Positions 44,622 through 64,000 of a DNA stretch of 64,000 nucleotides are shown here, piece by piece. Source of the stretch: Pseudomonadota bacterium (GTDB taxonomy: Bacteria > Desulfobacterota > Desulfobulbia > Desulfobulbales > SURF-16); assembly GCA_018897105.1 (NCBI GenBank), contig JAHILF010000053.1, forward strand, positions 62,056 to 126,055, written 5' to 3'. The notes under the pieces were generated by a model, which was given only the letters and a program-made list of their open reading frames with translations, was not told the DNA's origin and did not search any database. The translations under genes and the position numbers were made by a program. Every line of letters begins with the position of its first letter. The first letter of the stretch is position 1.

Positions 44622-46355
<1,734 letters not shown>

Positions 46356-46361
46356 CCGGAT

Positions 46362-46760: not shown

Positions 46761-46765
46761 GCGCC

Positions 46766-47071: not shown

Positions 47072-47080
47072 GAGGGTCAC

Positions 47081-47383
47081 GTGCAGATTGACCGTTTGCT
47101 CATTCTTGCTGCCATGCTGGTGATCGGCTTTGCTGTCGGCCTTGTTTATTTCCAGGGGTTGTGGCTGACCTTAAGCAGATACAGCGGCCAAAAAAATCTC
47201 GGCAGCAAACTGCTGTTGAGTTTTCTCATCCGCCTGACCCTGGCCATTGGGATTTTTTATTACTCTATGCAGGACGACTGGCAGAGACTCATCCTGCTGC
47301 TCATCGGTTTTTTGATTGCCCGGCAGGTAATGATTCGCAGATTGCGGGAACCTGCCCCTGCGGCCAAACCCAATATGAATTAA
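47081..47383 (+). CDS. atpR: N-ATPase AtpR protein
   Basis: GLVYFQGLWLT...SFLIRL...GFLIAR; small membrane protein between atpQ and atpB. Confidence 0.85.
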   Translation: MQIDRLLILAAMLVIGFAVGLVYFQGLWLTLSRYSGQKNLGSKLLLSFLIRLTLAIGIFYYSMQDDWQRLILLLIGFLIARQVMIRRLREPAPAAKPNMN

Positions 47384-47387
47384 CGCC

Positions 47388-48086: not shown

Positions 48087-48138
48087 GACTGCTGAAAATT
48101 TCACCACAATCCCGTCACACAAAATAAAAGGGGGAAAT

Positions 48139-48417
48139 ATGGATGCAATAGAGTTAATCGGTATGATGTCGGTGCTGGCAGCCGGCCTCTGCATGGGCAT
48201 CGGCGCCCTTGGTCCGGCCATCGGCGAAGGGATGGCGGCGGCCGCCGCCCTGCGTTCCATCGCACAGCAGCCGGATGAATCCGCGGCAATAACCCGCACT
48301 CTTTTCGTTGCCATGGCCATGATTGAGTCAACCGGCATCTACGCCTTTGTCATCGCCATTATCCTGATCTTTGCCAATCCCTTCTGGGAATACGCCATTA
48401 AACATGCTGCAGGTTAA
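48139..48417 (+). CDS. atpE: N-ATPase c subunit with a Na+-binding signature
   Basis: GALGPAIGEG in helix 1 and IESTGIY in helix 2. Confidence 0.95.
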   Translation: MDAIELIGMMSVLAAGLCMGIGALGPAIGEGMAAAAALRSIAQQPDESAAITRTLFVAMAMIESTGIYAFVIAIILIFANPFWEYAIKHAAG

Positions 48418-48420
48418 CCA

Positions 48421-49179
48421 ATGGGCATAGACTGGTTTACCTTCTGCGCCCAGATCATCAATTTCCTCATTCTGGTCTGGCTGCTGAAAAAAGTGCTCTA
48501 TCAACCCGTGTTGAACGCCATGGCAGAGCGGGAAGCAAAGATCGCCGCGCGGTTAAACGATGCCACAGAGCAGGCAGCCCAGGCAGAGCAGGAAAAAGGG
48601 AAATTTCTTGACCTGCAGCAGCAGCTCAAATCCTCTGCTGCCGCTGAAATGCAACGGGCAAAAAAGGAAGCTGACCTGTTCCGCGACGAACTGATTGCCT
48701 CGGTGCGCCGGGAGATAGAGCGGAACCGCAGCCAGTGGCTCGCCTCCCTTGCCAGGGAAAAGGAATCTTTTTTGAAAGAAACGAGCCTGACCATTGCCAG
48801 AGGCTTCCATAAACTGGCCAACAACACCCTGCGCGATCTGGCCGGCGAGGATCTTGAGCAAAGGGTACTTGCGGTTTTTCTCTCCGAACTCGGAAAACTC
48901 TCCCAAAAAGACAACGAACATATCAGCCGCCACATTACCGAGACCGGGGACGATGTCATCGTCACCAGCGCCTTTGCCCTCTCCTCTTCATTAAATAATG
49001 AAATCAACAGACGTCTTGGAGCCATGTGGGGGGGAAATCTGCATAGCCGGTTTCTGGTTGACGAGTCCCTGCTGGCCGGCATCCATATCGAGATTGCCGG
49101 CAAAAAAATAGAGTGGGACGCGGGTAACTATCTTGAAAAATTTGAACAGGAACTTGCTGCAAACCTTCACCTAAACTGA
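48421..49179 (+). CDS. atpF: N-ATPase b subunit with a delta-like C-terminal extension
   Basis: IDWFTFCAQIINFLILVWLL..LY.P, coiled coil, C-terminal LLAGIHIEI; no separate atpH gene. Confidence 0.9.
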   Translation: MGIDWFTFCAQIINFLILVWLLKKVLYQPVLNAMAEREAKIAARLNDATEQAAQAEQEKGKFLDLQQQLKSSAAAEMQRAKKEADLFRDELIASVRREIERNRSQWLASLAREKESFLKETSLTIARGFHKLANNTLRDLAGEDLEQRVLAVFLSELGKLSQKDNEHISRHITETGDDVIVTSAFALSSSLNNEINRRLGAMWGGNLHSRFLVDESLLAGIHIEIAGKKIEWDAGNYLEKFEQELAANLHLN

Positions 49180-49188
49180 TCTGACATT

Positions 49189-50709
49189 ATGCTGAAAGCA
49201 TCACTTGAAAAAACCCGTAACGCCCTTGAGCGTACTCTGGACTCCCATGAATTTTCCCTGCAAGCCGAGGATGTGGGCCGGATCATCTCGGTTTCCGGAC
49301 CGGTTGCCTATGCCAGTGGCTTAAACGGTGTTACCTCTGAAGAACTGGTGCAGGCTGAGGACGGCACCCTCGGCATTGTTGCCAGTCTGGACCCGGATAA
49401 GGTCGGCATCATTCTGCTGAGCACAGGCTATTCGCTCAAGGCCGGTCATGAGGTGAAACGGCTCGGCCGGGTGGCCGACGTGATGGTGGGAGAGGCACTG
49501 CTGGGCAGGGTGATCGACGCCACCGGCAAACCCCTTGATGAGAAGGGAACGATCCAGCATCTGGCAAGAAGTCCTCTGGAACACCCGGCCCCGGCAATTA
49601 TGGATCGTCTGCCGGTGGCAAGTCCACTGGAAACAGGTATCAAGGTCATTGACGCCCTGATTCCCATCGGCAAAGGGCAACGGGAGCTGATTCTCGGTGA
49701 CCGCCAGACAGGCAAAACATCCATCGCCCTTGACGCCATCGTCAACCAGAAGGACAAGGAGGTCATCTGCATCTATGCCGCCATCGGCCAACGGGAATCG
49801 GCTGTGGCCAAGGTGCTTCACGAGCTGAAAGAACATGGAGCGCTATCCTACACGGTGGTGGTGGTCTCAAGTGGCCAGGATGCACCGGGACTGCAGTACA
49901 TCACGCCCTACGCCGCCACCAGCATCGGCGAATATTTCATGTCCAGGGGCAAAAATGTCCTCATCGTTTATGATGATCTTACCCGCCACGCCCGTTCTTA
50001 TCGTGAGATATCTCTGCTGCTGGAGAGATCCCCGGGAAGAGAGGCTTATCCCGGCGATATCTTTTATATCCATTCCCGGCTGCTGGAAAGAGCAACCCAT
50101 CTTCGCCAGAACATGGGCGGCGGCAGCCTGACTGCTCTGCCCATTGTGGAAACCGAGGCGCAGAACCTCTCCGCCTATATTCCGACCAATATCATCTCCA
50201 TCACGGACGGTCAGATCTATCTCTCACCTGATCTCTTTTCCAAGGGCATGCTGCCCGCGGTTGATGTGGGAAAATCCGTGTCCAGGGTTGGCGGCAAGGC
50301 GCAGAAAGTTGCCTACCGGGATCTTGTCGGACAGATGCGTCTGTCCTATGCCCAGTTCGAGGAGCTTGAAACCTTTGCCCGTTTCGCCACAAGACTTGAT
50401 GATAATACCAAGAAAGCCCTGGAACGTGGCAAACGAGTAAGGGAAGTCCTGCGGCAGAGCAGATACTCCCCCTTGAAGGACTATGAACAGGTGGCGGTCA
50501 TGCTTGCCCTCACCGAAGGCCTGCTTGACGAAATTGAAGTCAAGGAAATCAAGGCGGCCGAGCAAAAAATTACGGAAAAAATATTCAGGGACCTCCCCCA
50601 CATCTGCCAAAAAATCCGACAGGGAGATAAACTGTCCGAAGATGAAAAAGCCGCCCTGCTCGCCTCCTGCAGACAGGCGGTTGCCCCCATTGCCGGCACC
50701 ATGGAATAG
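49189..50709 (+). CDS. atpA: N-ATPase alpha subunit
   Basis: [49 protein letters not shown]. Confidence 0.96.
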
Positions 50710-50715
50710 AACAGC

Positions 50716-51621
50716 ATGGAGACCTTACAGGATCTGGACAAAAGAATAACAACCACCACCAAGGTGCAGGGTATCGTCAAAAGCATGAAGACCCTGTCTG
50801 CCGTCAATATCCGTCAGTATGAACGGGCACTTGCCTCGTTGGACACCTTTGTCGAAGTCATCGAACTTGGCCTGCAGACGGTGCTCAAGGAAACGGCATT
50901 GCCGCGGCATGCTGCCGCATCGGATCAATTCCCCAGAGGGGTGATCATCTTCGGTTCCGATCAGGGTCTATGCGGCAGATTCAATGAACGTCTGGCCGAT
51001 TTTGTCAGACAGCAGCTTATCGGTATGAAAGTCACTGATTTCTCATCCCTCAAACTGATAGTCATCGGCGCACGGATTGCGGCCCGGCTTGAGGCGGGAG
51101 GTTTTATCATAGACAAACAGTTCTGGGTTCCAGGTTCCGTCAACGGCATTAACGCCAGTATTTATCAGGTGCTTCTCAGCTTGGAAGGCTGGCTTAAAGA
51201 ACACAAAATAGCCCAGGTTGATATCTTCCTTAACAGATATGAAAAATTAACTGCGGCCAGGCCCGATCACCAGGTTTTACTTCCAATTGATAACGACCAT
51301 CTGCGCGCTCTGCGCAAAAAAAAATGGCCGGGCAGGTCACTCCCCAGTTACCGGGTGCCGGCCGAGCAGCTTTTTTCCGGATTAATCCGCCAGTATCTGT
51401 TCGTCAATCTTTTCCGCAGTCAGGCCGAATCCCTGGCCAGTGAGCAGGCAAGCCGCCTGAGGTCTCTGCAGAATGCGGAAAAAAATATTGAAGAACATAT
51501 TGAGGAACTGCGGGGTGCATACAGGATAAAACGGCAGGCCACCATCACCTCGGAATTGCTGGACCTGGTTGCCGGATTCAAAGCAACCGTCAACTCCCAG
51601 CTCAAAACAACTGATCAGTAA
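50716..51621 (+). CDS. atpG: N-ATPase gamma subunit
   Basis: IVKSMKTLSA, GSDQGLCG.FN, SEQASRL, RQATITSELLD. Confidence 0.95.
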   Translation: METLQDLDKRITTTTKVQGIVKSMKTLSAVNIRQYERALASLDTFVEVIELGLQTVLKETALPRHAAASDQFPRGVIIFGSDQGLCGRFNERLADFVRQQLIGMKVTDFSSLKLIVIGARIAARLEAGGFIIDKQFWVPGSVNGINASIYQVLLSLEGWLKEHKIAQVDIFLNRYEKLTAARPDHQVLLPIDNDHLRALRKKKWPGRSLPSYRVPAEQLFSGLIRQYLFVNLFRSQAESLASEQASRLRSLQNAEKNIEEHIEELRGAYRIKRQATITSELLDLVAGFKATVNSQLKTTDQ

Positions 51622-52344: not shown

Positions 52345-53547
52345 ATGAAAAATCATTTAAGCAGATGTGTCTGCCTCTTTCTAATGATTTGGATGGTTTC
52401 AACACTGAATGCTCCATCCTTCATTTACGCGGCGGATGAAGAAGCATGTAGCGTATGCCACAAGTACCCGGGTTTGTCCCGGATTGATACCCAGACAGGC
52501 AAATCGCGCCTGTTTTACGTCAGTCAGGACATATACACCAATTCTGTTCATGGTAAGATTCTGTGCAGGAACTGCCATCTGAATCTTGATGTCATCCCCC
52601 ATACAGATGCAAAAAAAGTGGATTGTTCCACCAAATGCCACATCAAGGAACCATCCACGGACAAAGAATTCTCCCACGGCGGCATTTATGCTGAATTCAA
52701 TGTCAGTATCCATGGTCTATACACCCCGGAGATGACGAAAAAATGCACCGAGGATCTGCCGCAGTGCACAGACTGCCATGTAAACGCGGTTTATCAGCCT
52801 GTCAGCGACCTCACTACCATGAAGGCCGGCATTTCAGAAGACGCCTTGCGGCGCTGTCTTGGATGCCATGAGAACAAGGAGTGGACCAACCGCTTCTACC
52901 AGCATTTCGCCCACAGGATGCATCGATCAAAGACTGCTTTACAGACCGTTAAACTCTGTCTCGATTGCCATAAGGACGATAAGAAGATGGCTCGCCATGG
53001 GCTGACTGCCACGTCCAACTATAAGGATACCTTCCACTGGAAAGGCGTCTTGTATGGCGACCCGAATATGCCCGATTGCCTCAGTTGTCATGCCCCGGTA
53101 GGTTTTACGGTTCATTCTATGAAAACGGGGTCCGATCCTGCGTCATCGGTTAGTAAAAATAATCTGCAGAAGACCTGTGCCAATCTCAACGGTACACAGG
53201 TTTGTCATCCTAAAGCCACCGAGAAGTTTGCCACAGGTAAAATTCATCCGACAGGCTCCGGATTTGAAAAACAGGTTACCGAAAATGTTGAGGGTGAAGC
53301 CACTTTGAACGAAATGGAAAGCCTGCAGCAGGAAAGGCGTTTCCGTGACCTGAGCAGCATAACGGCCGAAGATGCTGACATCTCCAAGCTGAATGCACAG
53401 GAGCTTTTCCAACGGAAAGTCTACATAATTGTAAAATATGTGTATACTCTTTTGATCACTGTGGTGATTGGAGGAATGTTGGCACACCAGGTGCTTGATT
53501 TCATAAGAATACTCATAAACAAAAGCAGAAATAATCATCTGGGATAA
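52345..53547 (+). CDS. Membrane-anchored multiheme cytochrome c (6 CxxCH + CX3CH + CX8CH)
   Basis: Signal peptide after ATG 52345 (GGAGG). Motifs CSVCH, CRNCH, CSTKCH, CTDCH, CLGCH, CLDCH, CLSCH, CANLNGTQVCH. The C-terminal TM helix contains a His (GGMLAHQVLDF). Confidence 0.9.
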   Translation: MKNHLSRCVCLFLMIWMVSTLNAPSFIYAADEEACSVCHKYPGLSRIDTQTGKSRLFYVSQDIYTNSVHGKILCRNCHLNLDVIPHTDAKKVDCSTKCHIKEPSTDKEFSHGGIYAEFNVSIHGLYTPEMTKKCTEDLPQCTDCHVNAVYQPVSDLTTMKAGISEDALRRCLGCHENKEWTNRFYQHFAHRMHRSKTALQTVKLCLDCHKDDKKMARHGLTATSNYKDTFHWKGVLYGDPNMPDCLSCHAPVGFTVHSMKTGSDPASSVSKNNLQKTCANLNGTQVCHPKATEKFATGKIHPTGSGFEKQVTENVEGEATLNEMESLQQERRFRDLSSITAEDADISKLNAQELFQRKVYIIVKYVYTLLITVVIGGMLAHQVLDFIRILINKSRNNHLG

Positions 53548-53552
53548 CAACT

Positions 53553-55148
53553 ATGGACTCCGATAAAATAATTGGCAAAGATGGTGAGATGATGCATAAC
53601 AACGACAACCTCCCCAAGGAAATTGTAAGGCTGAATGGCTCAGAGCGCCTTCAGCATCTTATAACCTTTGTAACCTTCTTTATCCTGGTAATAACCGGAT
53701 ACATGCTCAAGATGCCTGAGGCATGGATTCTCAAGTTGGGAACATATGGAACTACCATATTTGACTACCGCGGACTTGTTCACAGGATAGCCGGCGTAAT
53801 CATGATTGTCGGTGGACTTGATCACATCCGCTACTGTATTTTCACCAAGGCCGGGCGGTCTTTCATGTTCGCCATGATTCCTACATTAAAAGATGTAACG
53901 GATATCATCGGCAATATGGCTTACTATTTTGGCCAACGTCCCGAACCGCCGGAATTTGAACGTTTCGATTACAGGGAAAAGGCTGAATATCTGGCACTTG
54001 TAGCCGGTACCATCATCATATCCGTGACCGGTATTTTCCTCTGGTCGGAAGTATACTGGAGTAAATTCGTACTTGATCTCTCGATTATGATTCACGGCAT
54101 GGAGGCCTGTCTGGCCACCATGGCCATTATCGTATGGCACTTTTATCAGGTTCACTTCAAACCCGGCCAGTTCCCCATGAGCAGAGTCTGGATAGATGGC
54201 AAGATGTCTAACCATCATCTGAAAATCGAACATGGCGCCATGTACAACCGCTTAGTTGCAGAAGGAAAACTCGCTCCGGTAGATGAACACGACCATCATG
54301 GCCATCACGGTCCGAAAACCGTCAAACAGGTCTTCGTCGAGATTATGACGTATTGTTCCATTCTTTTCTTTATGGGCGTGATGTTTTTACTTGGCAAGCT
54401 TCTTTATTTTCCACCGACCTATTCAGCCAAGGCCAAAACACCAAGCACCGGTTTTGATAGATTAATCCATAGTGGTGGGGATACGGCGAAGTATACCAGG
54501 CATTTCCACAACGTAGATGATACCGTGAATTTAAAGCTGGCGAACCCGCAATTCTGTGTGACCTGTCATGGCACCTTACCGCACAGCAAGGCTCCTGATA
54601 TCCGTTCTTTCCTTAACATGCATAGTTATTTTATGGCCTGTGAAGTTTGCCATGACCGTGAGGAAAATTTCTCCGGCAAATTCAACTACGTCTGGTTTGA
54701 CAACATGACGGATGAGAAGGTCGATAAAATTGAGGGCAGTAACGGCGTTTACGGGTCAAGACTCATCCCGGTCCTTGTATCAGACAGCAATAACGGCAAT
54801 GAAATTCGCCGCATGGATGAGGCTGAAGATCCCAACTTTATTAAATCCTACATTGCTCAGAAAGATATTCTGACTCCTGAGGAACAGGGTAAGGCAAAAG
54901 TAATCATCCATAAGAACATGGCAAAAAAACCAGTTCAATGTACGGAATGTCACAGTAGCAAACAACCTTATATCGATCTGGCACGGATAGGATATTCACA
55001 AAAACGTGCTGAGAGTCTTTATCGGACAGAGGTTGCTGATATGATTAATAGATACATGCAGTTCTATCTCCCGACCATGTTCGATCCCGATCTGATGAGA
55101 AAGCAGAAAATCAACGAACTGAAAATGGAGAATCGTTCCACTCAATAA
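53553..55148 (+). CDS. Cytochrome b (FdnI/HydC-like) domain fused to a triheme c domain
   Basis: ERLQH, HRIAG, RFDYREKAEY, IHGMEA..WHFY membrane helices, His-rich linker HDHHGHHG, then CVTCH, CEVCH and CTECH. Confidence 0.88.
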   Translation: MDSDKIIGKDGEMMHNNDNLPKEIVRLNGSERLQHLITFVTFFILVITGYMLKMPEAWILKLGTYGTTIFDYRGLVHRIAGVIMIVGGLDHIRYCIFTKAGRSFMFAMIPTLKDVTDIIGNMAYYFGQRPEPPEFERFDYREKAEYLALVAGTIIISVTGIFLWSEVYWSKFVLDLSIMIHGMEACLATMAIIVWHFYQVHFKPGQFPMSRVWIDGKMSNHHLKIEHGAMYNRLVAEGKLAPVDEHDHHGHHGPKTVKQVFVEIMTYCSILFFMGVMFLLGKLLYFPPTYSAKAKTPSTGFDRLIHSGGDTAKYTRHFHNVDDTVNLKLANPQFCVTCHGTLPHSKAPDIRSFLNMHSYFMACEVCHDREENFSGKFNYVWFDNMTDEKVDKIEGSNGVYGSRLIPVLVSDSNNGNEIRRMDEAEDPNFIKSYIAQKDILTPEEQGKAKVIIHKNMAKKPVQCTECHSSKQPYIDLARIGYSQKRAESLYRTEVADMINRYMQFYLPTMFDPDLMRKQKINELKMENRSTQ

Positions 55149-55155
55149 AGAGTAA

Positions 55156-56214
55156 TTGACTAGGACCATGCACCTTTGCCAACAACAACATTCTGTCGAT
55201 ATTCATTGTCACGTTGCCAGCTTAGCCGATCCGGCTCTGTTAAGCAGTCGAGCAGCTTCAGCTGGCAATAAAGACAGTAAAGGAAGACAGGATAGATACA
55301 ACCAAAGGTGCTGGTTGGTATTTTCCCTCCTTATTATATTGCTGATTTTCCCGGGCGCCATCTTTGCTCAAGATGGCGCTCCTCATATCGTCAAGTTCCA
55401 ACCTGTCCTGTCGATCTCAGGTTCAATGAAACTTCCCAGTGATGTTGCAGTTGACCAGAGCGGCAGGATATTCATTTTAGACGGCACAGCAGACATCGTC
55501 AGAGTATATTCCTCCAAGGGAGAACCAATATTTACCCTGGGAGGTGCCGGAATTCTCAAACAACCCCTTGGTATAGATGTTTCACCTGGGGGTGATGTGG
55601 TTGTGGCCGATTCAGGAAATCACCGCTTGGCATTCTTCCCCGCGGAAAATAAAACTCCCCATTACATTGATGTCCCCTCCTCTGTTGACGGCAACCCGAG
55701 CGATCCTACTGATGTCAATTTCGGACCTGACAACACATTTATTGTTGTGGACAACGATAATCACCGGGTTGTTTCACTCACCCGTTCCGGCAAAGTGGTC
55801 TGGACAACAGGGACAATGGGCCGTAATCCCGGTGAATTCCGTTTCCCTTTCCTGATGGATATTGATAGGTTGGGTAGGATCTATATTGTCGAGGCTATCA
55901 ATACACGGGTCCAGGTTCTTGAATCAAATGGTAAGTTTGCCCGTTTTATCGGCGAATGGGGTATTGAACCCGGTCAATTTTTCAGACCAAAGGGTGTGGT
56001 GGTAAACGACAAGAACGAGGTATTCGTCTCAGACAGTTATTTAGGAGTAATTCAGGTTTTCAAACGGGAAGGAGGGCTTATTGGGGTAATCGGAGACGGT
56101 CACGGCAAGATTACAAAATTCAAGACTCCGGTGGGGATGGCTATTTCCGGCAACCGTCTTATTGTCGTTGAAATGTTCAACAACAGGGTACTGATTCTGG
56201 AAAAACAGGATTAG
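55156..56214 (+). CDS. Secreted NHL-repeat beta-propeller protein
   Basis: Repeats PSDVAVDQSGRIFILD, PLGIDVSPGGDVVVAD, FRFPFLMDID, FFRPKGVVV..EVFVSD, FKTPVGMAI. The hydrophobic signal begins near LVFSLLIILL and the true start is uncertain. Confidence 0.9.
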   Translation: MTRTMHLCQQQHSVDIHCHVASLADPALLSSRAASAGNKDSKGRQDRYNQRCWLVFSLLIILLIFPGAIFAQDGAPHIVKFQPVLSISGSMKLPSDVAVDQSGRIFILDGTADIVRVYSSKGEPIFTLGGAGILKQPLGIDVSPGGDVVVADSGNHRLAFFPAENKTPHYIDVPSSVDGNPSDPTDVNFGPDNTFIVVDNDNHRVVSLTRSGKVVWTTGTMGRNPGEFRFPFLMDIDRLGRIYIVEAINTRVQVLESNGKFARFIGEWGIEPGQFFRPKGVVVNDKNEVFVSDSYLGVIQVFKREGGLIGVIGDGHGKITKFKTPVGMAISGNRLIVVEMFNNRVLILEKQD

Positions 56215-58964
56215 TGAAATTAATGCATCGGCTATCACCTTTAACATTTATTTTGATCCTTGCGGTTACACTTTTCCTGCCGCCGGTCACCGACGTGCAG
56301 GCTGCCGGAAATCTGACCCAGAATTCTGCCCGTGAATGTGCCATCTGCCACTTCAGATGGATTGATCAATTTCTCGAAGGTCATGGCACTGCCCTGGTAG
56401 AATATGAAAAAGAAGATATCGCCGGTGATGAAATGATCTGCTTCAGTTGCCATGACGGATCAACCGATGACTCGCGGAGGAAGGTATGGATACTGGACAG
56501 GCATAAAACCGATATGCTCCCTTCGGACAAAGTCAAAATTCCGAAGCTGTTTCCACTTTCTCAAGATGGTAAAGTCGTCTGCGCCACCTGTCACTCCGCG
56601 CACTCCGTTACCACGGATACCAGTATAGAACGCACCATCTTTCTGCGTATCTCCAATAAAGATTCCATAATGTGCGAGATGTGCCATGCCGCCCAGGCGG
56701 TCAAGGATTACAACCATCCCACCCATGAGGGTAAACGCCCTATACCAAATGAGCTCTATGCTGTAGGCGCGGTTCCATCTTCTACTGATCGCAACTTCGT
56801 GATTTGCGAAAGCTGCCATACTGCCCATGGCAGTGTGGAAAGAAATCTTCTTTTTGAAGTCAAGAAGCAATCAACCATCTGCACCCTCTGCCACCCGGGA
56901 GAGTACGATGCTCCCAATGCCCCGGTGAATAAGCAGGTCAATCACCCTCTACTGGTCGAGTTTAAACAAAATCCCAATGTCGGCGGAGTAAAGATTCAGT
57001 TGGGACCGAATAACAATCTCGAGTGTCTTTCGTGCCACAAGGTGCATCAGCATGAAAAGGGAAACAAAGCCCTGATAAAGAACAAAGAAGCACTCTGTCA
57101 GCTCTGTCATGCCGACAAGTCAGACAGATCCTCTGTTCCCGACTGGCAGAAAAGCAATCATCCGCTCTATGTCAAATACAAGCTTGATCCGGCAACCCAT
57201 GTGAAACTTGACGGCGGGCCGCAAAACACTGTTTACTGTTTCACCTGCCATAAGATACACCAGCACGAACCCGGCACCAAGGCCCTTGCCGCCCAGCGTG
57301 ATCCCCTCTGTGCAACATGCCATAAGGACCAGTATATGGTTGATGACACGGATCATGATCTCAGCATCACGGCAAAAGACGAGATCAATGTCCTCAAGCA
57401 AACCATAAAACAGACGGGAGTCTGTTCCGCCTGCCATATTCCTCACAAGGCCACCGGTCCGTATCTCTGGGCACGACAAGTAAAAGATCCAGCTTCACTG
57501 TCTTCACCGTCCAAACTCTGTCTCACCTGCCACAATGACAAGGGAACTGCAGCAAAAAAGACGGTGGGACGGTTTACCCATCCTGTTAATATTGCGATGA
57601 AAGAAGCGGATCAGTTGAAGGACCCGAAAACACTGCCGCTTTATACCATAACGGACGGCACCGAAGTGATGGAGTGTCATACCTGCCATGACCCGCACAG
57701 GTGGGACTCACAGAGCAGCAGGAAGGGCAAGGGCATCAATGATGAAGGTACTCCCTTCACCAGTTTTCTGAGGAAACGTTCCGGCACGGATAGCGCCCTC
57801 TGCGCGTCATGCCATGTGGAGCAGTATTATGTGGAAGGCACTGATCACGACCTCACCGTCACTGCGCCCAAAGAGAACAATATCGCTAAACAAACCGCCG
57901 GTCAATCAGGTGTCTGTTCACCCTGCCATGTGCCGCATCAGGCCAGCGGTCCCTATCTCTGGGCGAGAAAATTTGACAAAAAGCCAACCTCCCCGTCTTC
58001 CCTCTGTCTGAACTGTCACGTCAAAAAAGGACCGGCAGAGAAAAAGACCTTGGGACAGAACACCCATCCGGTGAACGTCAAGATAGAAGACCCCCTCAAT
58101 CTGACACTGCCTCTGCGTAAACTGTCCGACGGCACATCGGTTATGGAGTGCCATACCTGCCATGATCCGCATAAATGGAATTCCCAGATCAGCAAGAAGG
58201 GTAAGGGCTCCAACGTTGAGGGCAATGCTGACAGCAGTTTTCTCAGAAGCGCCAATCTGGAAAAACCGACTTTATGCGCCCAATGCCATCTCCGCAAAAG
58301 CTTTGTCACCGGAACCGATCATGACATGCGGGTAACAGCTCCCACATCACTGAACAAGAGCGGGAAGATGGCCAAGGAAGAGTCAGTCTGCTCTCCTTGC
58401 CATGCCGTTCATAATGCTACTGAGAAAATCCTGCTGTGGAATTACACTCTGGATGATGCCGGGCAGGACTTCATCGAGAAAGCCTGCAACGGTTGCCACT
58501 CCAAGAACGGGGCGGGAAAAGACAAGGTCATTTCTTCAGGTATACATCCGAAACAGTTCTATTTCGGCTATCATAAATCCTACCGGAATATCCTTCTATC
58601 CATCGGACCGGCGCCTGATCCCATTCCATTATATACTAAAGAAGGCACGAAGGCCGTTTCCGGGGAGATAACCTGTTCAACCTGCCATGATCCGCATATC
58701 TGGGACGCAAACGATGAAACCGCCGGGTCAGGGAAAATCATTGAGGGCACCGTTGTAAACAGTTTTCTCAGAAAGGGTGCAAGAAATGAATTGTGTTATG
58801 CGTGCCATGGCATTAAAACCCTTTTACTGTATAGATTTTACCATAACGCCAACGAGAAAAAGAGTATTTTAGGGATTTCGATGCCCTCCGCCGACCAAGT
58901 TGAGTCTGATACCCAAAGACAACCTGCCGGCGGCGAGGACAAAGAGAACAACGGGGTAAAATAA
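56214..58964 (+). CDS. 22-heme cytochrome c with doubled-CxxCH modules and three tandem OmcE-like tetraheme repeats
   Basis: 22 CxxCH counted in the translation, Sec signal peptide, three ~160-aa repeats each starting TDHD[LM]. Confidence 0.92.
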   Translation: MKLMHRLSPLTFILILAVTLFLPPVTDVQAAGNLTQNSARECAICHFRWIDQFLEGHGTALVEYEKEDIAGDEMICFSCHDGSTDDSRRKVWILDRHKTDMLPSDKVKIPKLFPLSQDGKVVCATCHSAHSVTTDTSIERTIFLRISNKDSIMCEMCHAAQAVKDYNHPTHEGKRPIPNELYAVGAVPSSTDRNFVICESCHTAHGSVERNLLFEVKKQSTICTLCHPGEYDAPNAPVNKQVNHPLLVEFKQNPNVGGVKIQLGPNNNLECLSCHKVHQHEKGNKALIKNKEALCQLCHADKSDRSSVPDWQKSNHPLYVKYKLDPATHVKLDGGPQNTVYCFTCHKIHQHEPGTKALAAQRDPLCATCHKDQYMVDDTDHDLSITAKDEINVLKQTIKQTGVCSACHIPHKATGPYLWARQVKDPASLSSPSKLCLTCHNDKGTAAKKTVGRFTHPVNIAMKEADQLKDPKTLPLYTITDGTEVMECHTCHDPHRWDSQSSRKGKGINDEGTPFTSFLRKRSGTDSALCASCHVEQYYVEGTDHDLTVTAPKENNIAKQTAGQSGVCSPCHVPHQASGPYLWARKFDKKPTSPSSLCLNCHVKKGPAEKKTLGQNTHPVNVKIEDPLNLTLPLRKLSDGTSVMECHTCHDPHKWNSQISKKGKGSNVEGNADSSFLRSANLEKPTLCAQCHLRKSFVTGTDHDMRVTAPTSLNKSGKMAKEESVCSPCHAVHNATEKILLWNYTLDDAGQDFIEKACNGCHSKNGAGKDKVISSGIHPKQFYFGYHKSYRNILLSIGPAPDPIPLYTKEGTKAVSGEITCSTCHDPHIWDANDETAGSGKIIEGTVVNSFLRKGARNELCYACHGIKTLLLYRFYHNANEKKSILGISMPSADQVESDTQRQPAGGEDKENNGVK

Positions 58965-58965
58965 A

Positions 58966-60579
58966 ATGGGCCGTTTCTGCATCGCATCGCTCTTTTTTCT
59001 GGCAGTAACACTCATATCTAGTTTTCCAACGGCAATTTCAGCTGAATCTGTAACCATTTCACCCGGCAGAGGATTGCACAGAACAAATGACGGCTTGACC
59101 ATCCCCTCCCCCCCTATTGAAACCATCGACAACCCCCATGTCATGGCCTGCAACAAATGCCATATTCAGGGTAAGGACGGCAAAACCCAAGAGACTCTGA
59201 TTACCGCTGACAGCATCAGTCTCTGCGAGATGTGCCATGCCGGAGCAAATCTTCACCCGCTGGGGATAGAGCCGATTAATCAGTTCGCCGGGCTGGATCA
59301 TTTCACCCTGCCCCTGGGTAATGGCATTTATCAGGGGAAAATTGTCTGCCTGACCTGTCATTACATACACCAGGATAAGTTTACCCCGTATCTTCTCAGA
59401 GGGGACAATACCTCACACCAGACTATCCGCAACAATTTATGCTCCATCTGTCATAAGGAACATTTTGCCGGCATTTCCCCGCATACTTCAGAAACCACAG
59501 CATGTGTTTTCTGTCATATCGCCACCCCGGAGAAAAGAAAGAATAAGGGGAAAATGGCCAAGGACGAAGTTGATGCCGTATGCTTCTTCTGCCACTGGTC
59601 GCTCAGAAAAAACCATTACAAGGATCTCGACCCGTTGCCGGACCCCCTTGTCCAGGAATTGATCGACCCATCAAGCAACCTGAAGCAGGGGCAGATGTAC
59701 TGTTTAAGCTGCCATATGCATCATGGAAAAGCTGCAGAAACCCATCTTATCACCAAGCAGTATCTCCAGCTTGCGGTGGTGTCCAGAAATATCAATCCCC
59801 ACTGGAAAAACCTGATGTGCATTTCCTGCCACAAGAGCGCTCCTTCAAAAGGAAATCCGAGTCTTCTCGGCAGTGGCGATCTCAACGAGCTCTGCAACCG
59901 TTGCCACAAGTCAGAGTTTGCCAGGGCTGATATTCATCCGGTGGGCATTATTCCCTCAAAACACGTGAAGATACCTCTGGACATGCCTCTGCAGAACGGG
60001 AAACTCTCCTGTGAGACCTGTCACCTGTCATCTCTACAGGAAAGTGCTCTGCATATCGATTCTATGGGCAAGGAAAATCCCAAATTCCTGCGTAGAAGCG
60101 GACTGTCGCGCAACGAATTCTGTTTTCTCTGCCACCGGCAGGAGACCTATCGTCGTTTGAATCCGCACCTGCAGGTTGACGAACATGGTCATATCAGGAA
60201 AGAAACGTGCCTTTTATGTCACGCCTCCCTGCCGGATATCTATCTTTTCGGCCCGGAAAATGTTATATTTATTGTTGCTGACCCCAATGAATACTGTATC
60301 GGCTGCCATCCGGGCTTCAGTGAGAATCATCCCGCCGGAGGCCGTCATCTGGTAAAACCTTCAGCAAAAATCTTAAAAGCGCTTGAAACCTCTGTACAAA
60401 GGATCGGCGTCGAGTTACCCTTGTATCAAGGCAAGGTGGTCTGCGCCACCTGCCATAATCCACACGATCTGGGGGTTATCAAATACCCTGCTTCGGCCGA
60501 AGGTTCGCAACGCAAAAACAAATTGAGGTTAATGCCCGGGATAACCCAGTGTACCGGCTGCCACTGGGATAAAGGATAG
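58966..60579 (+). CDS. 15-heme cytochrome c
   Basis: 15 CxxCH counted, signal peptide, repeated NPH..CxxCH..CxxCH..HP..CxxCH..LR..CxxCH modules. Confidence 0.92.
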   Translation: MGRFCIASLFFLAVTLISSFPTAISAESVTISPGRGLHRTNDGLTIPSPPIETIDNPHVMACNKCHIQGKDGKTQETLITADSISLCEMCHAGANLHPLGIEPINQFAGLDHFTLPLGNGIYQGKIVCLTCHYIHQDKFTPYLLRGDNTSHQTIRNNLCSICHKEHFAGISPHTSETTACVFCHIATPEKRKNKGKMAKDEVDAVCFFCHWSLRKNHYKDLDPLPDPLVQELIDPSSNLKQGQMYCLSCHMHHGKAAETHLITKQYLQLAVVSRNINPHWKNLMCISCHKSAPSKGNPSLLGSGDLNELCNRCHKSEFARADIHPVGIIPSKHVKIPLDMPLQNGKLSCETCHLSSLQESALHIDSMGKENPKFLRRSGLSRNEFCFLCHRQETYRRLNPHLQVDEHGHIRKETCLLCHASLPDIYLFGPENVIFIVADPNEYCIGCHPGFSENHPAGGRHLVKPSAKILKALETSVQRIGVELPLYQGKVVCATCHNPHDLGVIKYPASAEGSQRKNKLRLMPGITQCTGCHWDKG

Positions 60580-60598: not shown

Positions 60599-61102
60599 AT
60601 GAAATCCCCCTCCGCTGTTAATCTACATATAACGACATTACCATTACTGATCATATCTATGTTCTTCATGGTGAGTGTAGCACCATGTCCCGCAGCAAAA
60701 GAGCCTCCCCCTGCCCTCTCAGTTTATGTTGGTTCCCTCTCCTGCCAGCCCTGCCACGAGAAGGAATATGCCAACTTCTCCATCTATGCAAAAAAAAGCA
60801 ACTCCTATAGAAGCATTGAAAGACTGCAGAAAGGTCTGAACGAACAAAACTTAAAGAAATGCTATTTCTGTCACACTACAGGCTATGGGAAACCGGGCGG
60901 CTTTATCAGCGTTGAAAAAACTCCTCTTTTGAAAAATGCCGGCTGTGAGGTTTGCCACGGCCCGGGGTCGATTCACATAGAGGACGCAAAACCTGAATCG
61001 ATCATTGGCCATCCGACCATACAGATCTGCGATCAGTGCCACACAAGCGAGATGATAAAGGCCTTCAAATTCAGGCCTCTCATTCATGGCGGAGGGCATT
61101 GA
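60599..61102 (+). CDS. Tetraheme cytochrome c554-like protein
   Basis: YVGSLSCQPCH, CYFCHTTG, GCEVCHGPGS, CDQCH; signal peptide. Confidence 0.88.
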   Translation: MKSPSAVNLHITTLPLLIISMFFMVSVAPCPAAKEPPPALSVYVGSLSCQPCHEKEYANFSIYAKKSNSYRSIERLQKGLNEQNLKKCYFCHTTGYGKPGGFISVEKTPLLKNAGCEVCHGPGSIHIEDAKPESIIGHPTIQICDQCHTSEMIKAFKFRPLIHGGGH

Positions 61103-61103
61103 T

Positions 61104-64000
61104 ATGATCAACCTGAATGGAATTATCAAAAAGATCCTTCATCTGGAAACCCTGCTCACCATCGGCGTCACCATCGTCATGGCCGGTGTCATCTATTTCA
61201 GCATCACCAATCAACGGGAGCATATCAGGGAAAGAATGACCACCTATGGCCAGGATATGAAATCATTGGCCTATGCGGGCATCAAACATCCCATGGCGCT
61301 GGGAGACAGCCCCTCGGTTGAAAAACAGCTGCTTGATATCGGCGATGAACTGGAGAACACGGAAATAGTCATCTGCGATTTTAACCAGCGCATTGTTTTT
61401 GCAACCAATAAAGATCGTATCGGGGCCGAGGTATCGACCTTTACCGGCAATCGGGCGACCCTGGCTGCCCTGAAAAATCTGCTGGAAACCGCCGTTCCCC
61501 CACGGATAAGCTATTTTGAAGAGGAGAAGGACGGCGTCAATTATCTGGTTACCATCCACAGCATTTATAATAACGAGGAATGCCATCACTGCCACGGCGA
61601 CTCACGCAAGGTTCTCGGCGGGCTGTTGACGAGACAATCCACTGATGCCACCTATCTGGCCATCGCCACCCTGCGGAATCATACCATTATAGCAAGCCTC
61701 ATCGGCATAGGCCTGCTGATTACCATCATCTATTTCCTGCTGGCCAGACTGGTGACCAAACCCATAACCGAGCTGGCCGCCAAGGCTGAAGAACTGGCCA
61801 AGGGGAATCTTTCCGTATCCGCCCCCGTTCATTCCTCGGACTCCATAGGTATCCTGGCCGGCAGCTTCAACAGCATGGTGAAAAGCATCAAAGATAAGAT
61901 TGAATATGCCAACAGCCTCAAAGAAGCCATTGCCGATCCGCTGGTTATCGTCGACACCAACATGGTTGTGACCTTTATTAACGGCTCATGCGCCAGATTA
62001 ACCGGATACAGCAAACAGGAAACCGAAGGAAAATTAACCTGCCGAGAGATATTAAAAAGCGATATCTGCTGCCAGGATGAGACCTGTGACGCTACCTGCC
62101 CCATCAAAAAATGTCTTGTCTCAGGAGAACCGGTCGAAGATATCAGAATCATCATCGAAAACAAAGAAGGTGCTCTCATTCCCGTCATGGCCAGTGCCAG
62201 CGCCCTGAAAGACGCCCAGGGCAATATCACGGGGGCGGTGCAGATATTCAGGGATATCAGTGATGTTCTCGAAGCTGAACGGCTGCGTTATATCCAGAGT
62301 ATCTCCGAAAGGGAGGAAGAGCAGCGCAAATATCTTGAGTTCAGGGCCGAGAATCTGCTCGTCATCCTGAAACAGGCCTCGGACGGCAATCTGCAGGCGC
62401 GGGCCGAGTACCATGAAAGCAATGAAGTCATGGACAAAATCGCCTGCCATACCAACCAGATGCTGGATAATCTGGAAAAAACGTACGAAAAAATTTCCTC
62501 CTTGAGCAAGGGACTGGAGCATGAGGTGGCGCACCGAACAGTCATGTTGCAGGAAAGAACCCTCATGCTGGAGCGGGCCATCAGAGACCTACGGGAACTC
62601 GACAGACTCAAGTCCGCCTTCCTGGCCAACATGTCCCATGAACTCAGAACCCCCATGAATTCCATCATCGGTTACACACAGCTGCTGCTGGACCGGATTG
62701 ACGGTGAAATAAACGAAGAACAGGAAAAGAGCTTGATGAAGGTAGAAAATAACGCCAAGCATCTCCTGCAATTAATCAACGACATCCTTGATATGTCGAA
62801 AATCGAATCAGGCAAAATAGAACTCGACATTCAAGAGACGGATTTCACCTCCATGCGAGACACCATCAGCACTTTTTTCCAACCGGTGTTGGATGCCAAG
62901 GGTCTCTACCTCTATTTTGATTTCGCCGATGATCTCCCTACCGTCTTCATTGATAAGGATAAAGTAAAACAAATATTTACCAATCTGGTGGGCAATGCCG
63001 TCAAATTTACCGACCATGGCGGCATCACCATTCACGCCAAACCATCGACCCTGGGCATTGCCCCTGATAAAGCCCCCTTGTTTGTCGAGATATGTGTGGA
63101 AGACAGCGGCATCGGCATAAAAAAAGATGATATGACAAAACTTTTTGACAAATTTACCCAGATAAACGTTTCCGCCAGCCGCCCCTATGAAGGAACCGGA
63201 CTTGGTCTCAGCATTGCCAGAGGCCTGGTGGTGCTGCACAAGGGAGTTATCTGGGTGGAGAGTGAATTCGGCAAGGGAAGCAGATTCTACTTTACCCTGC
63301 CGGCGCAAAAGAAGGTTATGGAAAAATCCAATGAACCTATCATAGAGCTGGCCATGGCGGAAAAACTGGCTGAATACTTTGAGAAACCTATCGATCTCTT
63401 TCTTAAGGAGCCATATTATCTCGGCAAACGGGTCAAATGCTGGGAATATGTCCATTGCGGGCAGACAAGCTGCCCCGCCTACGGCAATACGGAAAGACGC
63501 TGCTGGCTGATCTGCGGTGTTCACTGCAAAGGGGTTGAGGTGGCTAAATGGCCTGAAAAGGTGGAGTACTGCAAGACATGTGAAATCATCGAAAATCTCG
63601 TGGTCGGAGAATTTGCCCCGCATAAGAGGAAGGATGAGGACCTGGAAGCTAATGCAGCAGACAGAGGCATCAAAAAGACTATCCTCGTCATTGACGATAA
63701 CCCGGAGGTTATTGAACTGATCAGGAAAAATATCGGGGAGGACTATAACGTCTTAGGCCATTATACCGGTGAGGGCGCGGTTGAAAAGGCCAGGGAGATC
63801 AAGCCTGCGGCCATTACCCTGGATATCATGATGCCAGGCAAAGACGGCTGGGAGGTCCTGCAGGAATTAAAAAAAGATCCTGTTGTGCAGGATATTCCAG
63901 TTATCATCCTGTCCATTGTTGATGAAAAGAAAATAGGGTTTTCCCTGGGGGCGACCGAATATATGGTCAAACCGATTGACAAAAAAATACTGCTGCATAA
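61104..64000 (+). CDS. Hybrid sensor histidine kinase (periplasmic CxxCH, HAMP, Cys-rich PAS, HisKA, HATPase, CW-type Cys domain, REC); 3' end outside the window
   Basis: Not in the ORF track. One open frame from ATG 61104 contains ECHHCHG (61581), MSHELRTPMNSIIG (62631), NLVGNAVKFT, GTGLGL, CWEYVHC..CPAY..CWLICG (63438) and ILVIDD..LDIMMP..KP. Confidence 0.93.
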   Translation, partial: MINLNGIIKKILHLETLLTIGVTIVMAGVIYFSITNQREHIRERMTTYGQDMKSLAYAGIKHPMALGDSPSVEKQLLDIGDELENTEIVICDFNQRIVFATNKDRIGAEVSTFTGNRATLAALKNLLETAVPPRISYFEEEKDGVNYLVTIHSIYNNEECHHCHGDSRKVLGGLLTRQSTDATYLAIATLRNHTIIASLIGIGLLITIIYFLLARLVTKPITELAAKAEELAKGNLSVSAPVHSSDSIGILAGSFNSMVKSIKDKIEYANSLKEAIADPLVIVDTNMVVTFINGSCARLTGYSKQETEGKLTCREILKSDICCQDETCDATCPIKKCLVSGEPVEDIRIIIENKEGALIPVMASASALKDAQGNITGAVQIFRDISDVLEAERLRYIQSISEREEEQRKYLEFRAENLLVILKQASDGNLQARAEYHESNEVMDKIACHTNQMLDNLEKTYEKISSLSKGLEHEVAHRTVMLQERTLMLERAIRDLRELDRLKSAFLANMSHELRTPMNSIIGYTQLLLDRIDGEINEEQEKSLMKVENNAKHLLQLINDILDMSKIESGKIELDIQETDFTSMRDTISTFFQPVLDAKGLYLYFDFADDLPTVFIDKDKVKQIFTNLVGNAVKFTDHGGITIHAKPSTLGIAPDKAPLFVEICVEDSGIGIKKDDMTKLFDKFTQINVSASRPYEGTGLGLSIARGLVVLHKGVIWVESEFGKGSRFYFTLPAQKKVMEKSNEPIIELAMAEKLAEYFEKPIDLFLKEPYYLGKRVKCWEYVHCGQTSCPAYGNTERRCWLICGVHCKGVEVAKWPEKVEYCKTCEIIENLVVGEFAPHKRKDEDLEANAADRGIKKTILVIDDNPEVIELIRKNIGEDYNVLGHYTGEGAVEKAREIKPAAITLDIMMPGKDGWEVLQELKKDPVVQDIPVIILSIVDEKKIGFSLGATEYMVKPIDKKILLH

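What the first reader, a model, noticed from the sequence alone, without database searches (positions are those of the whole stretch)
57340..58815. Three OmcE-like nanowire modules concatenated in one 22-heme polypeptide
Seen: the C-terminal half of the 916-aa cytochrome is three tandem ~160-aa repeats starting near nt 57348, 57840 and 58314. Each reads TDHD[LM]..CSxCHxxH..LW..CxxCH..HP[VK]..[LI]PL..CxTCHDPH..SFLR..LCxxCH. Established: this motif order matches my recollection of Geobacter OmcE (HDLS..CxxCHTPH..PLWN..CxSCH..HPVN..LPL..ECxSCH..FLR..LCxxCH), a tetraheme that polymerises head-to-tail into a cytochrome filament. Inference: this could be a genetically pre-polymerised 12-heme wire segment extended by 10 further hemes in doubled-CxxCH pairs, or a nucleator/adaptor for such a filament.
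Basis: partly seen in the sequence, partly recalled or inferred. Interest (0 to 1): 0.82.

Follow-up and report, generated by a model that had tools for sequence, protein, structure and literature searches.

The report
Fused, capped OmcE-type heme wire
One 916-residue, 22-heme cytochrome contains three end-to-end copies of the building block that Geobacter normally polymerises into OmcE "nanowires", apparently joined in one chain by the filament's own histidine link and sealed by a terminal histidine, so it is probably a fixed-length molecular wire rather than a filament subunit.

Summary
ORF 56214-58964 (+) encodes 916 aa with 22 CxxCH, and three ~160-aa tetraheme repeats begin at the stated TDHD positions.

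The OmcE comparison holds. Each repeat aligns end to end with the whole mature OmcE subunit (hhalign 99.5%, E 4e-22). The two solved OmcE filaments are the best sequence matches in the PDB. OmcE is the only meaningful structural neighbour of a confident single-module model, though the TM-score is only 0.39-0.44.

New here:
- In 699 of 745 junctions, the TxHD histidine lies exactly 11 residues after the previous unit's last CxxCH.
- 194 of 211 proteins carry a capping histidine at +12 after the last module (H877 here).
- All 120 free OmcE homologues examined end 2 residues after their last CxxCH.
- The protein has 22 conserved distal His for 22 hemes.

It therefore looks like a closed, self-contained wire, not a nucleator: 7 of 12 carrier genomes lack any OmcE subunit.

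The family is large (at least 544 loci in species-representative genomes, 1-7 modules per protein). It sits in a conserved cassette of anchored cytochrome, cytochrome b, NHL propeller and modular cytochrome, without a porin. Cellular location and function are inferred, not shown. I rate it a new variant of a known kind.

The parts
56214..58964 (+). Gene for the 916-aa, 22-heme modular cytochrome c (stop codon included)
   Evidence: ORF list; 22 CxxCH; >1100 homologues
56214..56303 (+). Sec-type signal peptide (aa 1-30, ...VTDVQA|AG); no lipobox cysteine
   Evidence: Read directly from the sequence; cleavage site is inferred
56304..56690 (+). N-terminal unit with hemes 1-4 (aa 31-159); partial resemblance to OmcE hemes 2-4; no His precedes heme 1, so the N-terminal end is closed
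   Evidence: hhalign of the N-half: aa ~70-159 match OmcE 97-231 at 97.5%; His inventory
56691..57329 (+). Three diheme 'paired CXXCH' units (hemes 5-10, aa 160-372), each HP..CxxCHxxH..CxxCH
   Evidence: Pfam PF09699 / TIGR01905; partial hits to the OmcE C-terminal diheme part only
57330..57821 (+). OmcE-like tetraheme module 1 (aa 373-536, hemes 11-14); its TDH381D His (nt 57354-57356) lies 11 residues after heme 10's CxxCH
   Evidence: 99.2% to the whole mature OmcE
57822..58295 (+). OmcE-like tetraheme module 2 (aa 537-694, hemes 15-18); junction His545 (nt 57846-57848)
   Evidence: 99.0%; single-module model pLDDT 89, sole PDB neighbour 7tfs
58296..58808 (+). OmcE-like tetraheme module 3, the specialised terminal module (aa 695-865, hemes 19-22); junction His703 (nt 58320-58322)
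   Evidence: 97.5%; M3 forms one ancient clade across species
58809..58844 (+). C-terminal cap GIKTLLLYRFYH: invariant His877 (nt 58842-58844), 12 residues after the last CxxCH; inferred distal ligand of heme 22
   Evidence: His at +12 in 194 of 211 family proteins, motif RYKYYH; invariant in 43 orthologues
58845..58961 (+). Charged, low-confidence C-terminal tail (aa 878-916)
   Evidence: pLDDT <50 for aa 888-916
52345..53547 (+). Cassette gene A: cytochrome with 6 CxxCH plus CX3CH and CX8CH and a C-terminal TM helix
   Evidence: conserved upstream in 57 of 78 loci
53553..55148 (+). Cassette gene B: cytochrome b (Ni_hydr_CYTB / FdnI-type) fused to a triheme c domain; candidate quinol/quinone site
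   Evidence: Pfam PF01292 E 1.4e-12; conserved in 59 of 78 loci
55156..56214 (+). Cassette gene C: secreted NHL-repeat beta-propeller, directly upstream and overlapping the cytochrome gene by one base
   Evidence: Pfam PF01436 E 2e-23; present in 71 of 78 loci
58966..60579 (+). Cassette gene E: 537-aa, 15-heme cytochrome
   Evidence: homologue present in most loci, position varies
60599..61102 (+). Gene F: tetraheme c554-like cytochrome, only in close relatives
   Evidence: Pfam PF13435; 6 of 78 loci

Best explanation
The gene encodes a self-contained, fixed-length 22-heme wire. The chain runs as follows: a signal peptide, a four-heme N-terminal unit with no donor histidine, three diheme paired-CXXCH units, and three complete tetraheme modules homologous to the OmcE nanowire subunit. 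Shown: the homology, the module boundaries, the junction spacing, the cap and the conserved gene cassette. Inferred: in the OmcE filament, each subunit's last heme is completed by a histidine from the next subunit. Here the same link is made within one chain, with the TxHD histidine of each module (H381, H545, H703) ligating the last heme of the preceding unit. The final heme is closed by a dedicated C-terminal histidine (H877). With 22 conserved distal His for 22 hemes, there is no open site for catalysis and no free end for polymerisation. At the OmcE rise of 34 A per four hemes, the chain would be roughly 19 nm long if it is linear. It is co-transcribed with a membrane-anchored cytochrome, a cytochrome b/c fusion and an NHL propeller, and there is no porin in the cassette. 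It therefore most likely carries electrons over a long distance between an inner-membrane quinone-linked complex and partners far across the periplasm. Module number (1-7 in relatives) would set the length.
For: Homology: the module profile against the OmcE family gives 99.6%/E 8e-24 and 99.45%/E 4e-22 with 137 aligned columns. Each of the three modules matches OmcE residues 24-232 separately (99.2, 99.0, 97.5%). The reversed-profile control gives 0.1%. PDB sequence search with 113 modules: 7tfs 7e-11 and 9yuq 1e-10, against 2.5e-6 for the next hit, NrfA. Single-module AlphaFold model: pLDDT 89.2, pTM 0.84. Its only meaningful PDB neighbour is 7tfs (prob 0.96, TM 0.44/0.39, 200 columns; all other hits at prob <=0.03). 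Junction and cap: CxxC[H] to TxHD His is 11 residues in 699 of 745 junctions; His at +12 after the last module in 194 of 211 proteins; all 120 stand-alone OmcE homologues end 2 residues after their last CxxCH. About 7 mature residues precede the donor His in OmcE homologues and 2 follow the last CxxCH, making 9, against 10 linker residues in the fusion. All 22 candidate distal His are conserved, with H877 invariant. Literature: OmcE has an interface heme completed by a His of the next subunit (PMC9473688; PMC13712944). Closed ends: 189 of 232 complete family proteins have hemes upstream of the first module and a cap. Cassette: NHL in 71, cyt b in 59 and anchored MHC in 57 of 78 loci from several phyla, including a bare five-gene cassette in Thermodesulfatator indicus. 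The terminal module is a distinct ancient clade while internal modules turn over.
Against: No model with hemes could be inspected, so neither the His-to-heme assignments at the junctions nor the linearity of the chain has been seen directly. No held paper names which OmcE histidine crosses the interface (the OmcE structure paper is not held). The TM-score to OmcE is below 0.5, and Foldseek on the full-length model found nothing. The N-terminal half is modelled poorly. Location is inferred only from a Sec signal, the absence of a lipobox and the absence of a barrel gene. In 22 of 78 loci, OmcE-type genes lie within 10 kb, with a barrel homologue in 4, so an outer-membrane or extracellular role in some lineages is possible. 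There are no expression or biochemical data.
Confidence: 0.6

Rival explanations
1. It is exported across the outer membrane and acts as a surface-exposed or extracellular fixed-length wire, working with an OmcE/Uet-type barrel encoded elsewhere in the genome.
For: Its modules derive from an extracellular filament subunit. The same genome has an OmcE/Uet-type cluster with a 691-aa candidate barrel and two propeller lipoproteins on contig C79. In Desulfosediminicola flagellatus the cassette lies between OmcE-like genes and a 704-aa gene without Pfam hits that matches the barrel. 22 of 78 loci have an OmcE-type unit within 10 kb. D. ferrophilus NHL-associated cytochromes were proposed to be outer-membrane associated (PMC5815863).
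Against: The conserved core cassette has no barrel. 7 of 12 carrier genomes lack any OmcE-type gene. Tight coupling to a cytochrome b and an inner-membrane-anchored cytochrome points to the inner-membrane side. Localisation of the D. ferrophilus proteins is itself uncertain, and deleting them had no Fe(III) oxide reduction phenotype (PMC9769857).
Confidence: 0.2
2. It is a periplasmic electron store (capacitor) or redox buffer rather than a directional wire. The many bis-His hemes would hold charge when acceptors are scarce.
For: 22 bis-His hemes with no catalytic site. Capacitor roles have been proposed for large periplasmic cytochromes such as the PCC3 MHC (PMC10734462). Heme number varies widely across the family, from 12 to 48.
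Against: The strict preservation of filament-like junction geometry and a specialised end module is more than storage would need. Obligate linkage to a cytochrome b complex suggests through-transfer. The two roles are not mutually exclusive.
Confidence: 0.1
3. It is an anchor, nucleator or adaptor that docks onto an OmcE-type filament.
For: Its last module has 'four hemes and nine histidines', the property Petersen et al. predicted for a filament anchor (PMC13712944). The genome does encode a stand-alone OmcE homologue.
Against: No His precedes heme 1, so it cannot donate a ligand to a filament end. Its last heme is capped, so it cannot accept one. 7 of 12 carrier genomes have no OmcE subunit, and co-occurrence is not significant (5/12 vs 4/20, Fisher p=0.24). 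A better anchor candidate exists in the C79 cluster itself.
Confidence: 0.06
4. The resemblance to OmcE is only the generic paired-CXXCH pattern shared by many multiheme cytochromes, not specific homology.
For: The three-sequence profile scored NrfA nearly as well as OmcE. Pfam and NCBIfam see only Paired_CXXCH_1 and generic c3/c7 families. The TM-score is below 0.5.
Against: With a deep profile, OmcE separates from NrfA by more than four orders of magnitude. The alignment is collinear over the whole subunit, including the non-heme motifs (TxHDL, LW, HPV, LPL, FLR). The N-terminal paired-CXXCH half of the same protein matches only part of OmcE. The reversed control fails. OmcE is the unique Foldseek hit.
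Confidence: 0.04

Closest known systems
OmcE tetraheme nanowire subunit (Geobacter sulfurreducens GSU0618, PDB 7TFS; Desulfuromonas soudanensis OmcE, PDB 9YUQ)
   Same: Each module has the same four CxxCH, the same four extra His and the same non-heme motifs, in the same order, over the full mature length. Profile-profile probability is 99.5%. OmcE is the unique structural neighbour. The fold is mostly coil.
   Different: OmcE is a ~230-aa free subunit ending 2 residues after its last CxxCH. It polymerises through an inter-subunit His and is encoded with a barrel and propeller lipoproteins. Here three units are covalently joined with a fixed 10-residue linker, preceded by 10 other hemes and capped by a C-terminal His. 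The gene sits with a cytochrome b, not a barrel.
GSU1996 dodecaheme 'nanowire' cytochrome (four concatenated c7-type domains)
   Same: One polypeptide built by concatenating a small multiheme module into a periplasmic wire. It is cited as the only characterised example of this design (PMC11492766).
   Different: The module family differs (c7 triheme-like rather than OmcE tetraheme). GSU1996 did not appear in the PDB sequence searches. Its module is not known to form filaments.
OmcE/Uet-type cluster cytochromes that begin with one OmcE-like unit (UetJ-like undecahemes; the 571-aa protein on contig C79)
   Same: An OmcE-like unit fused to further hemes. The same +11 His follows the unit's fourth heme.
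   Different: Those carry a single N-terminal unit with a free donor His and sit beside the barrel. The protein studied here has internal tandem units, closed ends and a cytochrome b context.
PCC3 periplasmic multiheme cytochrome of Fe(II) oxidisers (He et al. 2017; Hoover et al. 2023)
   Same: A long, repeat-rich, 21-27-heme cytochrome proposed to span the periplasm.
   Different: PCC3 has a porin, an extracellular cytochrome and a ~300-aa 5-TM protein with HX13H motifs. This cassette has none of these and instead has an FdnI-type cytochrome b and an NHL propeller. Sequence relatedness to PCC3 was not tested.
CbcL-type inner-membrane quinol oxidoreductases (cytochrome b fused to multiheme c)
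   Same: Cassette genes A and B together resemble this design: an FdnI/HydC-type cytochrome b plus periplasmic c hemes.
   Different: That comparison concerns the partner proteins, not the 916-aa cytochrome. Here the c hemes are split over two genes.

Membership tests
OmcE cytochrome family | Four CxxCH motifs plus four conserved extra His (N-terminal xHDL, CHxPH, HPV, CHxxH) in fixed order | tested here: met
   All present and invariant in each of the three modules. The same columns are invariant in 40 OmcE homologues.
OmcE cytochrome family | Detectable homology over the whole mature subunit | tested here: met
   hhalign 99.45%, E 4.4e-22, 137 columns. Three separate full-length hits. PDB profile search: 7tfs 7e-11, 9yuq 1e-10.
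OmcE cytochrome family | OmcE fold and heme packing | tested here: inconclusive
   Apo AlphaFold model, pLDDT 89. 7tfs is the only hit (prob 0.96), but TM is 0.39-0.44 and rmsd 6.4 A. Heme packing could not be modelled.
OmcE cytochrome family | Free-standing ~200-260-aa secreted subunit whose last heme lacks its own distal His (ends 2 residues after the last CxxCH) | tested here: not met
   The modules are internal to a 916-aa chain, and the last heme is followed by a conserved His at +12.
OmcE cytochrome family | Head-to-tail polymerisation into a filament through inter-subunit His-heme coordination | not testable with these tools
   The sequence suggests a within-chain equivalent (+11 junction) and no free ends. 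This needs purification and EM.
OmcE/Uet gene cluster | Neighbouring large beta-barrel, two propeller lipoproteins and a PPIase/SurA-like protein | tested here: not met
   No barrel at this locus; upstream lies an ATPase operon and downstream a sensor kinase. Such a cluster exists separately on contig C79.
Paired_CXXCH_1 (PF09699 / TIGR01905) | Doubled CxxCH domain scoring above the curated cut-off | tested here: met
   144.5 bits vs 20.6; 116.7 vs 25.2.
DmsE/MtrA decaheme family (TIGR03508) | Whole-protein score above the curated cut-off | tested here: not met
   85.4 bits vs a cut-off of 192.2.
PCC3 porin-cytochrome cluster | Porin, extracellular MHC and 5-TM HX13H inner-membrane protein in the cluster | tested here: not met
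   None were seen in the window or in the Sideroxydans/Gallionellaceae loci examined. PCC3 features taken from PMC5566968.
Catalytic multiheme enzymes (NrfA, HAO, MccA, OTR types) | A heme with an open or non-His distal position (CxxCK, missing ligand, Tyr/Lys/Cys ligand) | tested here: not met
   22 CxxCH and 22 conserved candidate distal His; no CxxCK. The PDB hits to NrfA and MccA are partial and weak.

The most novel reading that the evidence does not exclude
Bacteria from several phyla encode length-tunable, covalently 'pre-polymerised' OmcE wires with 1-7 modules and 12-48 hemes. These keep the filament's own His-swap junction, end in a specialised capped module, and plug into a cytochrome b/NHL inner-membrane complex to bridge the periplasm, with module number acting as a molecular ruler. 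If so, the same module would be used in two assembly modes, non-covalent open-ended filament and covalent closed wire. The cap and junction would also reveal the polarity and termination logic of OmcE filaments: the last heme of subunit n is closed by the N-terminal His of subunit n+1, and an anchor is an OmcE-like unit with a within-chain His at +11.
Probability: 0.3. Interest if true: 0.8.

Novelty: new variant of a known kind. Interest (0 to 1): 0.66.

Why it matters
Three reasons.

1. Open questions on OmcE filaments. Cytochrome nanowires are known as non-covalent polymers, and it is unresolved how OmcE filaments start, stop and are anchored (PMC13712944). It is also unclear why evolution sometimes oligomerises a module and sometimes repeats it within one chain (PMC11492766). 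This family shows the same module in both modes. Its invariant junction and cap make a testable prediction about which histidine bridges OmcE subunits and what a terminator looks like.

2. Natural material for biophysics. These proteins are monodisperse OmcE oligomers of defined length. That is what conductivity and redox studies of nanowires lack.

3. An unrecognised electron-transfer module. The conserved cytochrome b / NHL / modular cytochrome cassette occurs in at least 544 loci in species-representative genomes of sulfur- and iron-cycling bacteria, and I found no paper describing it. It may be a widespread way to move electrons across the periplasm.

Tried and rejected
- Foldseek with the full-length 916-residue model against the PDB returned only a chance ribosomal hit. 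I treat this as uninformative for a coil-rich apo model, not as evidence against OmcE similarity.
- The three-sequence repeat profile could not separate OmcE from NrfA. A 113-sequence profile was needed.
- The OmcE structure paper (PMC9357133) is not held. Four other papers state that a His crosses the subunit interface but do not name it.
- The Thermodesulfatator indicus genome could not be searched for OmcE subunits.
- PCC3 and the Slit_1321-1324 cluster of Fe oxidisers were considered and set aside because their gene content differs.
- The Uet cluster and the D. ferrophilus DFE_0448-0465 clusters share NHL propellers and cytochromes, but they could not be tied to this cassette by sequence.
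- Obligate co-occurrence with OmcE subunits was tested and rejected.
- Two literature searches for tandem or fused OmcE modules found nothing relevant.
- Thermincola CwcA was not compared.
Full report
**Observation.** The ORF at 56214-58964 (+) encodes a 916-aa protein. It has a Sec-type signal peptide, exactly 22 CxxCH motifs, and TDHD at aa 379, 543 and 701, which is nt 57348, 57840 and 58314. The three C-terminal repeats (aa 373-536, 537-694, 695-872) share 59% and 38% identity with the first and have 48 invariant columns. Pfam and NCBIfam recognise only the generic doubled-CxxCH domain and c3/c7-like families.

**Is the module OmcE-like?** I recovered OmcE residues 26-232 from PDB entry 7tfs.

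- A profile of only the three repeats put OmcE on top (E 1.4e-5), but NrfA was close behind. I therefore built deeper profiles.
- 163 module instances against 120 OmcE homologues gave hhalign probability 99.6%, E 8e-24, with module positions 3-163 aligned to OmcE 25-231.
- The tool-run comparison of 113 modules from many phyla with 40 OmcE homologues gave 99.45%, E 4.4e-22.
- Cutting the orthologue alignment in two showed three separate, non-overlapping, full-length matches of the C-terminal half to mature OmcE (99.2, 99.0 and 97.5%).
- The N-terminal half matched only OmcE's C-terminal diheme portion, and a reversed OmcE profile matched nothing.
- Against all PDB sequences, the 113-module profile found the two solved OmcE filaments at 7e-11 and 1e-10. 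The next hit, NrfA, was at 2.5e-6.

**Structure.** The full-length AlphaFold model was confident over the modules (block pLDDT mostly 75-91) and poor in the N-terminal half. Foldseek found nothing with it. A single-module model was confident (pLDDT 89.2, pTM 0.84). It had one meaningful neighbour in the PDB, the OmcE nanowire 7tfs: probability 0.96, TM 0.44/0.39, 200 aligned columns, with every other hit at probability 0.03 or less. The TM-score is below the usual same-fold threshold. However, the two solved OmcEs themselves differ by 5.2 A outside the 94-residue heme core (PMC13712944), and the model has no hemes. I count fold similarity as supportive but inconclusive, and homology as established by sequence profiles.

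**The junction and the cap.** This is the main new result.

- The literature states that in OmcE filaments one heme at each interface is completed by a histidine from the next subunit (PMC9473688; PMC12954529). Petersen et al. reason that an ideal filament anchor would be an OmcE-like unit with nine histidines and four hemes (PMC13712944).
- Across 745 full modules in 249 family proteins, the TxHD histidine lies exactly 11 residues after the His of the preceding CxxCH in 699 cases, and 12 residues after in 31.
- In 211 proteins that end with a module, 194 have a histidine exactly 12 residues after the last CxxCH, in a conserved RYKYYH-type tail. In the window this is LLLYRFYH877.
- All 120 stand-alone OmcE homologues examined end exactly two residues after their last CxxCH and have no such histidine.
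- In the 916-aa protein no histidine precedes heme 1. Every conserved non-CxxCH histidine lies downstream of a heme motif: +3 after odd-numbered hemes (heme 1 is the exception at +11) and +10 to +17 after even-numbered ones.
- All 22 of these histidines are conserved in 43 orthologues, and H877 is invariant.
- In OmcE homologues, about 7 mature residues precede the donor His and 2 follow the last CxxCH. That makes 9, against 10 linker residues in the fusion.

The simplest reading is as follows. The N-terminal His of OmcE ligates the last heme of the preceding subunit. The fused modules make this same link within one chain. A dedicated histidine closes the last heme. This step is an inference: no heme-containing model could be inspected, and no held paper names the residue.

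**Closed wire, not adaptor.** Of 232 complete family proteins examined, 189 have hemes upstream of the first module and a capped C-terminus. None has a free N-terminal donor His.

The window's genome does encode a classical OmcE/Uet-type cluster, but it is on another contig (C79). That cluster has a 278-aa stand-alone OmcE homologue ending CLTCHIK, two propeller lipoproteins, a 691-aa candidate barrel, a SurA-like protein, and a 571-aa cytochrome starting with an OmcE-like unit.

In an even sample of 151 genomes of the phylum, 18 carry the module. OmcE-type subunits occur in 5 of 12 tandem-module carriers and in 4 of 20 non-carriers (Fisher p=0.24). So 7 of 12 carriers have no filament subunit to dock to. 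The nucleator/adaptor reading is therefore disfavoured.

**Family and context.** The full-length family has more than 1,100 members in the word-indexed search. The module profile finds 997 clusters at 50% identity. At least 544 loci were found in species-representative genomes. These span Desulfobulbales, Thermodesulfobacteriales, Nitrospirota, sulfur-oxidising Gammaproteobacteria, Sideroxydans/Gallionellaceae, Sulfuricella and others. The closest relatives are Desulfobulbaceae and Desulfurivibrio MAGs at 86-92% identity.

Module number ranges from 1 to 7 and heme number from 12 to 48. A tree of modules shows the terminal capped module as one ancient clade. The internal modules intermix, and in T. 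indicus they are nearly identical to each other, indicating recent duplication or gene conversion.

The gene neighbourhood is conserved. An NHL propeller lies directly upstream in 71 of 78 loci. An FdnI-type cytochrome b is present in 59 and a membrane-anchored cytochrome in 57, with most absences on truncated contigs. In T. indicus the cassette is just these five genes, with no barrel. In the window it is flanked by an ATPase operon upstream and a sensor kinase downstream. In 22 of 78 loci an OmcE-type unit lies within 10 kb, and in four a barrel homologue does too. Linkage to outer-membrane OmcE systems is therefore recurrent but not obligatory.

**Function.** All hemes appear bis-His, so a catalytic role is unlikely. 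Taking the OmcE rise of 34 A per tetraheme (PMC12954529), 22 hemes would span about 19 nm if the chain is linear. That is comparable to the width of a periplasm. The protein is also coupled to a quinone-type cytochrome b complex and has no porin partner. I therefore think a long-range periplasmic conduit is most likely. An exported surface wire and a charge store are the main rivals. None of this is shown experimentally.

**Novelty.** Several related things are already published:
- concatenation of c7 modules in GSU1996;
- gain of extra hemes in OmcE relatives;
- long repeat-rich PCC3 cytochromes;
- OmcE-like proteins with five hemes.

I found no description of tandem OmcE modules, of their fixed junction and cap, or of this cytochrome b/NHL cassette. 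Earlier notes of this scan mention larger cytochromes that begin with one OmcE-like unit, which matches what I saw on C79, but they do not mention this architecture. I classify it as a new variant of a known kind.

Noticed in passing
Own genome contig C79 (L097 4770-13524): A classical OmcE/Uet-type cluster: a 278-aa stand-alone OmcE homologue, two propeller lipoproteins (LSGC and LPGC lipoboxes), a 691-aa candidate barrel, a SurA-like protein and a 571-aa cytochrome. The 571-aa protein starts with an OmcE-like unit that has a free N-terminal SKHNLS His, and it has a His exactly 11 residues after the unit's fourth CxxCH. That fits the 'nine histidines, four hemes' filament anchor predicted in PMC13712944.
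   Followed up: partly
L002 10001-12604 (Thermodesulfatator indicus orthologue, P0031): Internal modules M1 and M2 are almost identical to each other (branch lengths 0.05 and 0.04), while the terminal module is divergent. This indicates recent duplication or gene conversion between internal modules.
   Followed up: partly
window 44682-51621: An ATP synthase operon with gene order beta ... a ... b/delta-like, alpha, gamma directly upstream of the cytochrome cassette. The order is reminiscent of N-type ATPase operons. Only Pfam hits were examined.
   Followed up: no
window 61086-63998: A sensor histidine kinase whose gene overlaps the end of the c554-like gene and has a periplasmic CHHCH heme motif (…NNEECHHCHGDS…). 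It is a possible redox sensor for the cassette. T. indicus also has a two-component system directly upstream of its cassette (L002 4121-5918).
   Followed up: no
L028, L029, L067 (Sideroxydans, Nitrospirae, Gallionellaceae loci): In these lineages the cytochrome b/triheme fusion is split into two genes (about 265-305 aa cytochrome b plus about 300-360 aa TM-anchored triheme). The anchored-cytochrome/cytochrome b/triheme set can be duplicated. L029 holds two modular cytochromes (18 and 20 hemes), each behind its own set.
   Followed up: no
L001 1738-21906 (Desulfosediminicola flagellatus): The cassette is embedded in a 20-kb island that also has small OmcE-like cytochromes (207 and 228 aa), extra NHL propellers, a 704-aa protein without Pfam hits that weakly matches the C79 barrel, and further multiheme cytochromes. 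This cultured organism may be the best place to test how the two systems connect.
   Followed up: partly
window 52345-53547: The anchored cytochrome has two non-canonical motifs, CSTKCH (CX3CH) and CANLNGTQVCH (CX8CH), besides six CxxCH.
   Followed up: no
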